Assembly (NCBI GenBank): GCA_903839715.1
Contig: CAIMDH010000138.1
Span: 1 to 25,082 of the forward strand
Length of the DNA: 25,082 nucleotides
From: an uncultured bacterium
Lineage (GTDB): Bacteria > Patescibacteriota > Minisyncoccia > Phycocordibacterales > UBA918
Reading direction: 5' to 3'
Part shown: piece after piece, positions 15,272 to 19,063 of the stretch
Position numbering within the stretch: the first letter of the stretch is position 1
Layout: each line of letters starts with the position of its first letter
Made by a program: the position numbers and the translations under genes
The notes under the pieces: model-generated
What the model was told of the DNA's origin: nothing
Database searches by the model: none
The model's input: only the letters and a program-made list of their open reading frames with translations

Positions 15272-15349
15272 TGGTCGGAGGGGTAAGATTTGAACTTACG
15301 ACATCTGAGCCTTTAGGCTCAGTGCTCTACCTAACTGAGCTACTCTCCG
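15272..15349 (-). ncRNA. tRNA-like element or pseudo-tRNA without a canonical anticodon loop
   Basis: CGGAGAG acceptor (one A-C mismatch), D arm GCTC/GAGC, T arm GTAAG-TTCAAAT-CTTAC, A73 and encoded CCA; the anticodon arm is an 18-nt perfect hairpin CTGAGCC-TAAA-GGCTCAG. Confidence 0.8.
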
Positions 15350-15884: not shown

Positions 15885-16665
15885 CGTTTATTCCCCTCTT
15901 TCAAGGAGCACAGACTATATCTTCACCCGTCTACATGGATAGTAGTGAGGGTGATGGCATCTTACACATAGAAGCAGTCATTTTCTAAGAAATGATTCCT
16001 CTACCTATGCGTCCGCGCGTCTTTCAGCGCAAGTCGTTACGGGGTCAAACCCAATCGAAGTAGCAAAGTTTCTTTACTCAAAGTAGCGTGGCTTTTGTAG
16101 TTACAGCCTCTAATTAAAAAGACAAAATCTACTAAGCTTCGCAACTCATACTCACTCAGCTTGCTAATTGTTTTCGAACTCAAGATTGTACAAGCTTGCA
16201 ATAAAGCATCCGCTTGAACTGTTTTGAATCTGATAAAAGGTCGCAACTGAGTCAATACTTTTTGTACTGAAACAAAACCATTAATTCTTAGCTCGGTCAT
16301 CCCATCATTACGATTGGATAAGTATCCGATTTCTAAGATTTCACGCATCCACTTAAGTGGTTCTGCGTGGCAAGTATCTTGATAGAGACATATAGTTGCC
16401 ATAAATCTGACGCCACGACTAGTGTCGTTTCGTAGTTTTATCTGCAACATTATGCTTCCATCTCCATCAAGGAAACCTGCAATGTATGCTAAATCTGTTT
16501 TGGATCGACTTCCCACGGTATTATCATATCAACATTCCGGTCCTCAAGCGAGTTTAATGCACACTGGACCGTGGCGCATTAAATTCTAAAACCGAAAGTG
16601 ACGTAGACTTCACCGTTATAAGCCATGTTGTCATCAGAGATCTCTCTCTGAAGTAGCAAAAATTT
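15885..16665 (-). mobile_element. Group I intron (IA-like, 781 nt) inserted after U2656 (E. coli numbering) in the sarcin-ricin loop
   Basis: Removal restores CCTAGT|ACGAGAGGACC. The 5' exon ends in U paired to G in P1 (UAGU/GCUA) and the intron ends in G. P3 GAUGACA/UGCCAUC, P7 ACGACUU/UAGUCU with J8/7 GAAGAUA, P7.1/P7.2 stems and a GAAA-capped P9 are present. Confidence 0.92.
16037..16516 (-). CDS. Single-motif LAGLIDADG homing endonuclease (I-CreI-like) in the intron P6 region
   Basis: YIAGFLDGDGSI motif, 159 aa, GTG start; lies between the Q (AAUACCGUGG) and R/P7 elements, with the stop abutting P7. Confidence 0.93.
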   Translation of the reverse strand: MGSRSKTDLAYIAGFLDGDGSIMLQIKLRNDTSRGVRFMATICLYQDTCHAEPLKWMREILEIGYLSNRNDGMTELRINGFVSVQKVLTQLRPFIRFKTVQADALLQACTILSSKTISKLSEYELRSLVDFVFLIRGCNYKSHATLSKETLLLRLGLTP

Positions 16666-16712
16666 ACTAGGAACAACTCTCCTCAAGAATCGACGCCTGC
16701 AGTAGATAGGAG

Positions 16713-16750
<38 letters not shown>

Positions 16751-17388
16751 GACTTTTTAATTGGCGAACAGCCAAACCCTTGGGACCTGCTCCAGCCCCA
16801 GGATAAGTCGAGCCGACATCGAGGTGCCGAACCGTGCCGTCGCTATGGACGCTTGGGCACGACTAGCCTGTTATCCCCAGGGTTACTTTTATCGGGTAAT
16901 CTCCGGCCGCATCTAACGCGTACCATCGGTTCACTATGCTCCGCTTTCGCGTCTGTTCGGCATCTACGCCTTACAGTCAAGCTGGTTTATGCCATTACAC
17001 TATCGGTACGGTTTCCATTCGCACCTAACCAACCTTGAGACCCCTCCGTTACTTTTTGGGAGGGTAGCGCCCCACTAAAACTGCCTGCCACGCACTGTCT
17101 CTGATAGATTTTTTCTAACAGGTTAGAGACTACCAAATTAAAGGGTGCTATTTCACTGACGACTCCATGGTACCCGAAAGCCCACTTCAAAGTCTCACAC
17201 CTATACTACGCATTAATTCAATAGCCCCAATACGAAGCTACAGTAAAGCACCTGGGGTCTTTTCGTCTATCTGCAGGTACGCGGCATCTTTACCGCGATT
17301 GTATTTTCACCGAGCTGGTCCTCGAGACAGTTTCCCACTCGTTACGCCATTCGTGCACGTCGGAACTTACCCGACAAGGAAATACGCT

Positions 17389-17618
17389 CTATTTTTCCTT
17401 CTTAACGACAAGCCTTACTTGTCTGTGCACCAATAGGACTCTATCTTCATCTTCACCAAGAAATAAATCAGGGTGGTCAGATGTCTAGCATTTGGTCTCT
17501 TGTTGGCTAGATTTGGATTACTCTCTATTTCTAGAGGTAAGGTAACTATGGCTAGGCTGTTTAAACCTATAACCGTTCTAATCCGTAGAGCGTACTTCCC
17601 TTACGGGAAATGCGCTCT
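17389..17618 (-). mobile_element. ORF-less, compact or degenerate group I intron (230 nt) at L1931
   Basis: Removal restores CTAAGGT|AGCG-TAT-TTCCTTGTCGGG. The 5' exon ends in U and the intron ends in G. Contains S-like GAAGATAGAGTCC, R-like GAGACC, CTAGC/GCTAG P3 and GACAAG/CTTGTC P9. The boundary could shift 2 nt because of an AG repeat. Confidence 0.8.
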
Positions 17619-19063
17619 ACCTTAGAACGATTATAGTTATCGCTGACATTTACTGGGGCTTATATAGTCCAGCAATACAATCCGAAGATCATATCACCCC
17701 CCATATTTAACCTTCCAGCATAGGTCAGGCGTCACCCTCTATACATCCACTTACGTGTTCGCAGAGAGCTGTGTTTTTGTTAAACAGTCGGCAGGAAATC
17801 TTTCGCTGCGGCCTCATACATTGCTGTAGAGGCAGGCCTTATCCCTAAGTTACGGCCGCTTTTTTGCCGAGTTCCTTGAGGACCAATCACTCGTTCGCCT
17901 TAGTCTTCTCGACTCTACCACCTGTGTCGGTTTGCGGTACGGAACCGTTATGTTTAACCCAAACGAAGTTTTTCTCGGAAGCGTGCTCTTTATATTTGCT
18001 TGGCCGTAGCCGCGCATTCAGACTCATCTCGGAATATTGCCACGCGGATTTGCCAACGTGACTTCCTCAAAGCTCCAGCACCAATCCAATAAGATGCTAT
18101 AAGTACAACGCTCCGTCCCTCCATAGGAACATAACAGTGTGCAGGAATATTAACCTGCTATCCATCGGGTCCCCCATTCGGGATTCCCTTAGGACCGACT
18201 AACCCTTCGCTGATCAACATAGCAAAGGAAACCTTGGTATTTCGGCGGACGGGGGTCTCACCCGTCTTGCGGTTACTTGTGCCGGCATTCTCACTCCTCC
18301 TCGCTCCACCGCGGCTCTCGCCTTGGATTCATCGCAGAGAAGGACGCTCTCCTACCACTCCCATGATAAATCATGGAAATCCGCAGTTTCGGTAATATAC
18401 TTGAGCCCCGATCATCTTCGGCGCAAGGACTCTCGATCAGTGAGCTGTTACGCTTTCTTTAAAGGATGGCTGCTTCTAAGCCAACCTCCTGATTGTTTGA
18501 GAATCCTCACCTCCTCAAGTTGCACTGAGTATATATTTAGGGACCTTAACTGGCGATCTGGGCTGTTTCCCTTTCGACCAATGGAGCTTCTCCCCCATAG
18601 TCTAACTGCTGCGCTATAATCTACTGGTATTCGGAGTTTGATAGGAGCAACGAGATTTCTCCCTGTTTGCTCCTTCCAGTGCTCTACCCCCAGAGGGACC
18701 ACGCAACGCCAACCCAAAAGCTGTTTCGGAGAGAACCAGCTATTACGTAATTCGATAAGCTTTTCACTCCTTACCACAAGTCATCCCATAGTTTTGTACG
18801 GCTAACGGGTTCGGGCCTCCACGACCTATTACAGTCGCTTCACCCTGCTCATGGTAAGCTCATCACGCTTCGGGTCGTACCCCTACCCTATATTCGCGCT
18901 ATTCACGCTCGCTTTCACTGTGCCTCCGTGGGTCTACCACTTAGACAAAGGATAAAGGTACACTCGCCGGCTCATTCTTCAATAGGCACGCCGTCACCCC
19001 AATAAATTGAGGCTCCGACTCCTTGTAGGTGTATGGTTTCAGATCTATTTCACTCCCCTCTCC

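What the first reader, a model, noticed from the sequence alone, without database searches (positions are those of the whole stretch)
17389..17634. Minimal L1931 intron carrying a 31-nt guide antisense to the ligated exons
Seen: intron segment 17599-17569 (GGAAGUACGCU-CUACGGA-UUAGAACGGUUAU) pairs 13 bp with the 5' exon (AUAAUCGUUCUAA, H69 3' side) and 11 bp with the 3' exon (13 bp including the terminal AG), with the unpaired gap centred on the junction. The intron's 5' end (AG-AGCGCAUUUCC) mimics the 3' exon and occupies the same guide before step 1. Established: P1 and P10 are normally about 4-8 bp with a U-G pair at the 5' site. Here the best pairing gives U-A, P7 has only 4 good pairs and P4-P6 looks reduced. 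Inference: a decayed ribozyme compensated by a strand-exchange splint, or an intron removed by protein nucleases or in trans.
Basis: partly seen in the sequence, partly recalled or inferred. Interest (0 to 1): 0.7.

Follow-up and report, generated by a model that had tools for sequence, protein, structure and literature searches.

The report
Mini group I intron clamping exons
The 230-base insert in this tiny bacterium's 23S rRNA gene is a stripped-down self-splicing-type (group I) intron that has lost a domain normally considered essential, grips both flanking rRNA pieces with unusually long base-pairing, and still appears to be cut out exactly in RNA data.

Summary
The reading as one 31-nt guide on a decayed ribozyme is only partly right.

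The insert (17618-17389, minus strand; after U1931, ending in G) belongs to a lineage of L1931 group I introns found only in CPR bacteria. I sampled 80 distinct members, and about 66 of them, this one included, lack P4-P6 entirely.

The "guide" is three separate elements:
- The 3' strand of a hairpin at the splice site. It is complementary to 12 nt of the 3' exon, but only in this genus.
- A 13-nt site that pairs with helix 69 of the 5' exon. It is compensated across six exon variants and is present lineage-wide.

The canonical guide lies elsewhere (GUU|ACCUU, 17546-17539) and gives U-A rather than U.G. A second covarying clamp joins the intron tail to the 3' exon.

A metatranscriptome contig identical to this species' exons skips exactly these 230 nt.

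The exon clamps also occur in relatives that keep P4-P6, so they predate the loss. Help in trans from another intron is not general.

This scan has noted the P4-P6-less family before, on other genomes. I found no paper describing it.

The parts
17624..17636 (-). 5' exon strand of the 5' clamp (E. coli C1914-U1926: helix 69 loop and 3' strand)
   Evidence: Pairs with 17579-17567. In 80 relatives, 1918-1926 are paired in at least 97%. Both-sided changes occur at 1924, 1921 and 1920 across six exon haplotypes.
17619..17623 (-). Last 5 nt of the 5' exon (AAGGU, A1927-U1931), the P1 exon strand; the 5' splice site follows 17619
   Evidence: Complementary to ACCUU at 17543-17539. The junction is confirmed by intron-less relatives and by the RNA joint.
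17389..17618 (-). The intron, 230 nt, with no ORF
   Evidence: Rfam Intron_gpI scores 27.3 bits, E 4e-5 locally, below the gathering score of 50. Homologues sit at the same site in 55 genus genomes. An RNA contig skips exactly 230 nt.
17587..17618 (-). P1a: hairpin that starts at the first intron nucleotide (13 bp, GUAA loop at 17604-17601). Its 5' strand mimics the 3' exon.
   Evidence: -19.3 kcal/mol. 5 to 19 of 34 sequences have both-sided changes at 9 of its pairs. Its 3' strand pairs 12 bp with the 3' exon.
17580..17584 (-). GGAUU, 5' strand of the closing helix of the 5' domain
   Evidence: Pairs with AAUCC at 17519-17515. The fourth pair is U-A in 28, C-G in 51 and mismatched in 1. The first pair is G-C in 65 and U-A in 6.
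17567..17579 (-). Exon-binding site (EBS) of the 5' clamp
17539..17546 (-). Canonical internal guide: GUU (P10 guide for AGC of the 3' exon) plus ACCUU (P1 guide; the A faces U1931)
   Evidence: Invariant in the genus. Positionally homologous to GCU|GCC of relatives with P4-P6 and to CGUU|GCC of canonical L1931 introns, in each case directly 5' of a GNRA hairpin.
17520..17538 (-). P2 hairpin with a GAAA loop
   Evidence: Stem pairs show both-sided changes in 7 to 18 of 34 sequences.
17515..17519 (-). AAUCC, 3' strand of the closing helix
17484..17511 (-). P3 (UCUAGC 17511-17506 with GCUAGA 17489-17484). It encloses only CAACA, the R element AGAGACCA (17500-17493; P7 5' strand with bulged A) and AAU. 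No P4-P6.
   Evidence: P3 has both-sided changes in 10 to 21 of 34 sequences. Its 5' strand lies 4-7 nt from R in the minis.
17448..17483 (-). P8 hairpin
   Evidence: Covaries.
17436..17447 (-). S element AAGAUAGAGUCC (J8/7 plus the P7 3' strand GUCC)
   Evidence: Matches the Rfam consensus. Invariant in the genus.
17407..17423 (-). P9 hairpin
17394..17400 (-). Intron-tail strand (AAGGAAA) of the 3' clamp
   Evidence: Pairs with 17382-17376. Compensated in the other 3' exon haplotypes (AGGUAU/AUACCU, AGGUAC/GUACCU, AAGGAAUU/AAUUCCUU).
17389..17389 (-). Terminal G (omega G)
   Evidence: Every one of the roughly 66 minis ends in G.
17376..17388 (-). 3' exon A1932-U1944. Positions 1-3 are the canonical P10 target. 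Positions 1-12 are complementary to the P1a 3' strand. Positions 7-13 form the 3' clamp.

Best explanation
This is a working, miniaturised group I intron at 23S position L1931. It belongs to a lineage found only in CPR bacteria.

Shown by comparison of sequences:
- The lineage has an enlarged P1 loop. A hairpin (P1a) starts at the splice site. It is followed by one strand of a closing helix (GGAYU/ARUCC) and then by a 13-nt exon-binding site that pairs with helix 69 (C1914-U1926).
- The canonical guide (GYU|RCCU) sits further downstream, directly before the GNRA-capped P2 hairpin.
- A second clamp pairs the intron tail with 3' exon positions 7-13.
- In most members, this one included, P4-P6 is deleted cleanly between P3 and P7. 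In these members the guide base opposite U1931 is A instead of G.

Inferred mechanism:
- The exon-binding site and the guide together pair 18 consecutive 5' exon nucleotides. This builds a four-way junction with P2 and the closing helix.
- That junction and the 3' clamp hold and position both exons, work normally shared with the P4-P6 scaffold and its J4/5 contact to the U.G wobble.
- The retained P3-P7-P8-P9 core then carries out the usual two guanosine-dependent transesterifications, possibly with protein or chaperone help.

One RNA contig shows exact excision and ligation.

The 12-bp complementarity between the P1a strand and the 3' exon is a genus-specific addition. At most it is an auxiliary extended P10.
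For: Group I identity: Rfam's model aligns the R and S elements, P3 and P8 but deletes P4-P6.

Spread: 55 of 127 other genus genomes carry the intron. That is 55 of the 59 that have this 23S stretch assembled. Among 164 distinct L1931 introns fetched, 80 have this architecture, and every one whose record names its organism is a CPR bacterium apart from one bin labelled Gammaproteobacteria (L105); 84 are canonical.

5' clamp, in 80 introns with six exon haplotypes:
- 1924: U-A 36, C-G 43
- 1921: C-G 40, G.U 31, G-C 5, U-A 2
- 1920: U.G 14, U-A 28, C-G 38

Closing helix: covaries in 79 of 80.

3' clamp: compensated in four exon haplotypes.

Guide: homologous by position to canonical relatives. 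It is G in all 13 members with a canonical P4 and A in all of the roughly 66 minis.

P4-P6 loss: the P3 5' strand lies 4-7 nt from R. All minis end in G.

RNA:
- A joint 17386/8 to 17617/9 that skips 230 nt appears in one contig in each of three metatranscriptome runs.
- None appears in the DNA run that holds the window.
- The X16 contig matches 121 nt of the 5' exon with 0 differences. Every other species representative is at most 98% identical there, and the known intron-less species at most 95%.
- Intron depth in X16 is 0.
Against: - No biochemical test. Catalysis by the RNA alone is inferred.
- Three hallmark features fail: P4-P6 is absent, the 5' splice site has U-A instead of U.G, and the Rfam score is 27.3 against a cut-off of 50.
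- P7 keeps only 4 standard pairs.
- The four-way junction and the guide assignment rest on homology and invariance. The exon AAGGU and the guide ACCU do not vary, so there is no covariation to test.
- The RNA joints in X15 and X20 have only 28 nt on the shorter side. An intron-less strain of the same species cannot be excluded for X16.
- The link between the A/G guide base and P4-P6 loss may reflect only one or two events. The AU test does not reject a single mini clade (p 0.34). L068 is an exception.
Confidence: 0.7

Rival explanations
1. After step 1 the 3' exon displaces the intron's own 5' end from the P1a 3' strand (17600-17589). This forms a 12-bp P10 that, with the 5' clamp, splints the two exons. 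The mimicry would make the swap nearly isoenergetic, because the freed mimic could take over the tail strand.
For: - 12 contiguous bp at -17.4 kcal/mol; 0 of 300 shuffles are as good.
- 28 of 37 genus introns reach p<=0.05 even though their hairpin sequences differ widely. Changes are often one-sided and keep the pair, as in GGAAGUACGCU, GGAAAUACGUU and GGAAGUGCGU.
- The mimic is identical at 12 of 13 positions.
Against: - Outside the genus only 6 of 43 introns reach p<=0.05, with mean z -0.3.
- The variant 3' exon AGCGCAAUUCC is compensated in only one (L017) of the 8 introns that carry it.
- 3' exon positions 4-13 or 7-13 are held by the tail clamp, which does covary.
- The P1a hairpin (-19.3) plus the clamp (-5 to -7) outweigh the long P10 (-17.1).
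- A canonical 3-bp P10 guide sits next to the real guide.
Confidence: 0.25
2. A protein-dependent ribozyme. The core cannot fold or dock its substrate alone and needs a host protein or an intron-encoded maturase, as CYT-18 or LAGLIDADG maturases support other group I introns. That protein would stand in for P4-P6.
For: - P4-P6 is lost, P7 is short and the splice site has U-A.
- The same 23S gene carries a LAGLIDADG ORF in its SRL intron at 16037-16516.
- From my own knowledge, engineered P4-P6 deletions of the Tetrahymena ribozyme need unusually high ion concentrations.
Against: - Near-complete genomes (G006, G003, G062, G021, G007, G089) carry the mini-intron with no other detectable group I intron. 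An intron-encoded maturase is therefore not generally available.
- No candidate host factor was identified.
Confidence: 0.3
3. Help in trans from the P4-P6 domain of another intron RNA, for example the SRL intron of the same transcript.
For: This genome has three other group I hits. From my own knowledge, P4-P6 can be supplied in trans in vitro.
Against: At least eight genus genomes have the mini-intron as their only RF00028 hit, and four more have no hit at all. These include assemblies of 1 to 4 contigs. RF00028 has limited sensitivity, so this is not absolute.
Confidence: 0.05
4. The insert is not spliced by group I chemistry. Either it is retained in mature 23S rRNA, as reported for the Simkania L1931 intron, or it is removed by nucleases with fragmentation or protein ligation.
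For: The title of Everett et al. 1999, cited in PMC11270868, reports an unspliced L1931 intron. The long perfect helices could be RNase III substrates.
Against: - An RNA contig joins the exons exactly at the U| and G| boundaries, and no intron RNA is seen in that run.
- The clamp sequesters helix 69, so retention would disrupt a conserved ribosome element.
- The G-binding P7, the terminal G and the R and S elements are conserved.
Confidence: 0.05
5. The long antisense stretches serve mobility. The excised intron would use them to find and reverse-splice into intron-less 23S rRNA, replacing the lost homing endonuclease.
For: There is no ORF. The combined complementarity to the ligated exons (13-15 plus 12 bp) far exceeds what forward splicing needs.
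Against: The distribution in the genus fits vertical inheritance: the genus introns form one clade at 100/100 support. The clamps also occur in ORF-bearing relatives. No direct evidence was found.
Confidence: 0.1

Closest known systems
Canonical L1931 group I introns of bacteria, organelles and archaea (e.g. Haugen et al. 2007, PMC1995217). 84 were fetched here from many phyla.
   Same: The insertion site is the same, after U1931. The R and S elements, P3, P7, P8 and P9, the GNRA-capped P2 in one subtype and the P10 target AGC(G) are shared.
   Different: The canonical introns have a 3-7 bp P1 with a U.G wobble (66 of 84 use GCCUUAG) and a 4-bp P10 (CGCU). They keep a full P4-P6, have no exon-binding site in the P1 loop, and have a median length of 631 nt.
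CPR rRNA insertion site 23IS7 at position 1931 (Tsurumaki et al. 2024, PMC11270868), e.g. the 691-nt I-ShaI intron
   Same: Same phylum-level group and same site. The paper records group I-like inserts there.
   Different: The paper classifies inserts by Rfam hit and ORF content. It does not describe the exon clamps, the P4-P6 loss or the U-A splice site.
Engineered P4-P6 deletion of the Tetrahymena ribozyme ('Minimal catalytic domain of a group I self-splicing intron RNA', Ikawa, Shiraishi and Inoue 2000; recalled from memory, title seen in reference lists)
   Same: The P3-P9 domain acts without the P4-P6 scaffold.
   Different: It is man-made. As I recall, it depends on peripheral elements and high ion concentrations. 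The present family is natural, conserved and has its own exon clamps.
Degenerate 63-75 nt group I introns of Phialophora SSU rRNA (Harris and Rogers 2011, PMC3160393)
   Same: They are natural group I derivatives that have lost core helices yet keep P1, P7 and P10. They also pair with the 3' exon in a way the authors suggest stabilises them.
   Different: They are fungal nuclear IC1 derivatives that also lack P3 and P8. They have no long 5' exon clamp.
Group II intron EBS1/EBS2-IBS1/IBS2 and EBS3-IBS3 pairings; extended guide sequences of engineered trans-splicing group I ribozymes (PMC6155759)
   Same: They work alike: long intron-exon duplexes beyond the splice-site helix hold and select the exons.
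   Different: Group II is a different ribozyme class. The engineered guides have a different position and polarity.

Membership tests
Group I intron (Rfam RF00028, Intron_gpI) | Score at or above the curated gathering threshold | tested here: not met
   27.3 bits against 50. E is 4e-5 on the 421-nt region and 2e-5 per genome.
Group I intron | The 5' exon ends in U, the intron ends in G, and the exons join exactly | tested here: met
   GGU|AG...AG|AGCG. Intron-less relatives read GGU|AGCG. An RNA joint skips 230 nt. All minis end in G.
Group I intron | P3/P7/P8 pseudoknotted catalytic core with the R-S pairing and a bulged-A G-binding P7 | tested here: met
   P3 and P8 covary. R (AGAGACCA) and S (AAGAUAGAGUCC) align to the consensus. 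P7 has only 4 standard pairs and is invariant, so it is not itself tested by covariation.
Group I intron | P4-P5-P6 scaffolding domain (P and Q elements) | tested here: not met
   81 model positions are replaced by 1 nt. P3 leads to R through 5 nt. Relatives with P4-P6 show what is missing.
Group I intron | U.G wobble pair at the 5' splice site in P1 | tested here: not met
   U1931 faces A both in the canonical guide ACCUU and in the AC linker. Relatives with P4-P6 have G there.
Group I intron | Internal guide forming P1 and then P10 on adjacent nucleotides | tested here: met
   GUU|ACCUU at 17546-17539 is homologous by position to GCU|GCC. The assignment is by homology, with no covariation available.
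Group I intron | Guanosine-initiated self-splicing in vitro | not testable with these tools
   Needs a bench experiment, or raw RNA reads showing a non-templated G on the intron's 5' end.
CPR L1931 lineage with an enlarged P1 loop ('class B', defined here) | P1a hairpin at the splice site, then A(C), GGAYU and a 13-nt site complementary to exon 1914-1926 | tested here: met
CPR L1931 lineage ('class B') | ARUCC partner after a GNRA-capped P2, and an AGG-containing tail that pairs with 3' exon positions 7-13 | tested here: met
RNase III-processed rRNA intervening sequence | A simple long stem at helix 25 or helix 45 type sites, with fragmented rRNA and no ligation | tested here: not met
   The site is L1931, group I core elements are present, and an RNA contig shows ligated exons.

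The most novel reading that the evidence does not exclude
A natural group I ribozyme that splices without P4-P6 and without a protein. Two covarying exon clamps and a four-way junction built on the 5' exon would replace the scaffold and the wobble receptor, which is why U.G became U-A. In this genus, a partner swap between the exon-mimicking 5' end and the true 3' exon would drive the change from the first to the second step.
Probability: 0.25. Interest if true: 0.9.

Novelty: new variant of a known kind. Interest (0 to 1): 0.72.

Why it matters
Reviews treat P4-P6 as the scaffolding half of every group I active site, and the U.G wobble as the mark of the 5' splice site. This family has neither. 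Hundreds of millions of years of natural selection appear to have kept it working in an essential rRNA gene that appears to be the only copy in these small genomes.

Three consequences follow:
- It offers a natural test of how little RNA suffices for group I catalysis.
- It provides a candidate structural solution that can be probed, mutated or imaged: exon clamps plus a four-way junction.
- It may be a compact scaffold (180-230 nt) for engineered splicing or RNA circularisation with built-in long target recognition.

It also affects annotation. Rfam's threshold misses these introns, so CPR 23S genes are mis-delimited.

Tried and rejected
- The Rfam gathering scan of the window reports no intron. 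Only the permissive scan does.
- I first read the conserved block between P1 and P3 as a possibly transposed P4-P6. Relatives that still have P4-P6 carry the same block, so I rejected that.
- I first took the A(C) after the hairpin as the whole P1 guide. Homology points to GUU|ACCUU instead.
- The MFE fold pairs A1927 and A1928 with the UU of GGAUU. Covariation assigns those U's to AAUCC.
- I tried to show that P4-P6 loss and the G-to-A guide change happened more than once. The best tree needs 2 changes, but the AU test does not reject a single mini clade (p 0.34). Only 1-2 independent pairs exist, so no statistical claim is possible.
- The RNA joints in X15 and X20 have 28 nt on the shorter side and were laid at 90% likeness. 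They are too weak to assign to this organism. Uncovered intron bins in RNA runs are not used as evidence, except alongside the X16 joint.
- Literature searches found no description of this architecture: CPR with 23S and group I intron; 'lacking P4-P6'; P4-P6 with Patescibacteria; L1931 with P10.
- I did not use the count of structure pairs, build_rna_model, protein tools or complex prediction. Pair counts come from RNAalifold and from my own scripts.
Full report
**What is at the coordinates**

The window carries a 23S rRNA gene on the minus strand. Around E. coli position 1931 the gene reads ...CUAAGGU, then 230 nt, then AGCGUAUUUCC.... The insert is 17618-17389. It follows U1931 (17619) and ends in G (17389). 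Five intron-less members of the same genus read CTAAGGT|AGCG at this point, which fixes the boundaries.

A second intron, carrying a LAGLIDADG ORF, splits the sarcin-ricin loop further downstream. The genome is 876 kb in 147 contigs.

**Check of the observation**

- Segment 17579-17567 pairs with exon 17636-17624. The MFE fold gives 15 contiguous pairs, and the region folds at z = -6.3 against shuffles. The 13-bp duplex is worth -15.7 kcal/mol.
- Segment 17600-17589 pairs 12 contiguous bp with the first 12 nt of the 3' exon (-17.4 kcal/mol; 0 of 300 shuffles as good).
- The first 13 intron nucleotides match the last two intron nucleotides plus the 3' exon at 12 of 13 positions. With the same strand they form a GUAA-capped hairpin, P1a, of -19.3 kcal/mol.
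- Rfam's group I model matches at only 27.3 bits against a cut-off of 50. It aligns the R and S elements, P3 and P8, and collapses 81 model positions (P4-P6) into one nucleotide.

**Relatives**

BLAST of the intron finds homologues at the same site in 55 of 127 other species genomes of the genus. Only 59 of those genomes have this 23S stretch assembled, so the true frequency is 55 of 59.

Searches of the order, and a pattern scan of all species genomes for the exon followed by a base other than A, gave 164 distinct L1931 introns. They fall into two classes.
- **Class A** (84 introns, many bacterial phyla and archaea). It has the textbook guide. In 66 of 84 the guide is GCCUUAG, which gives a 7-bp P1 with a U1931.G wobble, preceded by CGCU for a 4-bp P10. 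The rest use UGCC. All have P4-P6, and the median length is 631 nt.
- **Class B** (80 introns). Those with named records are Paceibacterota, Saccharibacteria, Nomura-, Yonath- and Zambryskiibacteria and Minisyncoccia, plus one bin labelled Gammaproteobacteria (L105).

Long exon pairing is therefore not standard at L1931 in general, but it is standard in this CPR lineage.

**The 5' clamp is real**

The sampled hosts have six different helix 69 sequences, and the intron stretch follows them:
- position 1924: U-A 36, C-G 43;
- position 1921: C-G 40, G.U 31, G-C 5, U-A 2;
- position 1920: U.G 14, U-A 28, C-G 38;
- positions 1918-1926 are paired in at least 97% of the 80 introns.

Within the genus the exon is invariant, and the intron strand changes only between A and G opposite exon U.

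**The 'gap' is a helix**

GGAYU (17584-17580) pairs with ARUCC (17519-17515). The Y-R pair is U-A in 28 introns, C-G in 51 and mismatched in 1. The first pair is G-C in 65 and U-A in 6.

**Where the canonical guide is**

Lining up class A introns that have a P2 hairpin, class B introns with P4-P6, and the minis shows one common order: P10 guide, P1 guide, GNRA hairpin, J2/3, P3. After P3 comes either UAUAU plus GCUGG (J3/4 and P4) or, in the minis, about 5 nt and the R element.

The guide reads CGUU|GCC in class A, GCU|GCCU in long class B introns, and GYU|ACCU in the minis. In the window it is GUU|ACCUU at 17546-17539. P1 is therefore AAGGU with ACCUU, where U1931 faces A, and P10 is AGC with GUU.

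The exon-binding site and this guide pair 18 consecutive exon nucleotides. Their intron strands meet at a point from which P2 and the GGAUU/AAUCC helix also leave, with 0-2 unpaired nucleotides. That geometry implies a four-way junction. This part is inference. Neither the exon end nor the guide varies, so covariation cannot test it.

**Loss of P4-P6 and of the wobble**

In about 66 of the 80 class B introns the P3 5' strand lies 4-7 nt from the R element. P3 itself covaries freely.

The guide base opposite U1931 is G in all 13 members with a canonical J3/4 plus P4, and A in all minis. One Saccharibacteria intron, L068, has a divergent P4-P6-like domain together with A.

From my own knowledge, the U.G wobble is read by J4/5 within P4-P6. 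Losing both together makes structural sense.

The events may be few. The best tree needs two changes, but a single mini clade is not rejected (AU p 0.34).

All minis end in G. P7 keeps G-C, a bulged A, G-C, A-U and C-G. Its distal pairs, present in some relatives as GGCCAU/AUGGUC, are lost in the window's type.

**The 3' clamp**

The intron tail AAGGAAA (17400-17394) pairs with 3' exon positions 7-13 (17382-17376). Hosts with other exon sequences carry matching tails:
- AGGUAU with AUACCU;
- AGGUAC with GUACCU;
- AAGGAAUU with AAUUCCUU.

RNAalifold scores one of its pairs as A-U in 28 and U-A in 6. In some genus members the clamp reaches 10 bp, leaving the splice site in a 5-nt loop.

Complementarity between the P1a 3' strand and the 3' exon beats shuffles in 28 of 37 genus introns (mean z -3.1). 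It does so in only 6 of 43 outside the genus (mean z -0.3). It is therefore a genus-level feature.

Several points count against a required strand exchange:
- Of the eight genus introns with the variant exon AGCGCAAUUCC, only one compensates.
- The clamp competes for the same exon nucleotides.
- P1a plus the clamp are more stable than the long P10.

In its favour, hairpin sequences differ widely across the genus yet keep the complementarity. The mimicry would also let the freed 5' strand take over the tail. I rate it an auxiliary function at about 0.25.

**Is it spliced?**

Metatranscriptome contigs from three studies join 17386/8 to 17617/9 and skip exactly 230 nt. The DNA run that holds the window shows no such form and has a contig running across the 3' junction.

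Two of the joints have only 28 nt on the shorter side and are weak. The third, in run X16, has 37 nt on one side and 121 nt of 5' exon with no mismatch. No other species representative exceeds 98% identity in that stretch, and the intron-less ones reach at most 95%. Intron depth in that run is 0.

This supports exact excision in this species. An intron-less strain cannot be excluded.

**Help in trans**

Genomes G062, G006, G003, G021, G093, G098, G070 and G012 have the mini-intron as their only RF00028 hit. G007, G089, G128 and G147 carry the mini-intron and have no hit at all. Several of these assemblies are in 1-10 contigs. Help from another intron's P4-P6, or from an intron-encoded maturase, is therefore not generally available.

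**Comparison with what is known**

Tsurumaki et al. 2024 catalogue CPR inserts at position 1931 but not this architecture. Hausner et al. 2014 describe P4/P6 as the scaffolding domain of the active core. Harris and Rogers 2011 describe fungal 63-75 nt group I remnants that also pair with the 3' exon. Searches found no paper on CPR introns lacking P4-P6.

Earlier notes of this scan report the same P4-P6-less family on other genomes. I re-derived that independently here.

This report adds the following:
- the dissection of the 'guide' into three elements;
- the location of the real guide;
- the link between the guide base and P4-P6;
- the finding that the long P10 is genus-specific.

**Verdict**

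The insert is a new variant of a known kind: a conserved, apparently functional mini group I intron with two covarying exon clamps. It is not a decaying one.

Noticed in passing
window 15886-16673 (minus strand): A second group I intron splits the sarcin-ricin loop (AGU|...G|ACGAGAGG, after U2656). It carries a 159-aa LAGLIDADG-type ORF at 16037-16516. Because of it, Rfam's LSU match stops at 16679, although the true 23S 3' part continues to about 15690.
   Followed up: partly
L185, L186, L188 (genus genomes G036, G069, G097): Three of the five genus genomes that lack the L1931 intron carry an intron at L1951 instead (GUCGGGUA|G...). L187 and L189 have neither.
   Followed up: no
L054 (G276:C11), minus strand: A roughly 1.1-kb group I intron with a canonical P4 and an ORF sits after U1943 (UUCCU|...G|UGUCGG). 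This site was not among those I saw listed for CPR in PMC11270868.
   Followed up: no
L068 (Saccharibacteria contig CAYTZA010000019.1): A 297-nt class B intron with a short, divergent P4-P6-like domain but A rather than G opposite U1931. It may be an intermediate between the long and mini forms.
   Followed up: partly
G252 contigs C60 and C34 (L047): A 59%-complete bin from another genus holds two 23S alleles. One is 85% identical to the window including the mini-intron, and one has no intron. This looks like a mixed bin.
   Followed up: no
window 17473-17619, RNA run X15: Contigs at depth 10-46 cover the 5' two-thirds of the intron in a freshwater metatranscriptome, with a 1-nt deletion at 17563. 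They could come from precursor, excised intron or a close relative. The 3' third has no cover.
   Followed up: no
L048, L053, L061, L064, L075: A second group of minis keeps a full 6-bp P7 (GGCCAU/AUGGUC or GACUAU/AUAGUC). On the tree it groups with P4-P6-bearing introns at modest support. This hints at stepwise reduction or a second loss.
   Followed up: partly
window 15275-15349 (minus strand): A tRNA-like gene (Rfam tRNA, 52.8 bits) lies between the 23S 3' end and the 5S gene.
   Followed up: no
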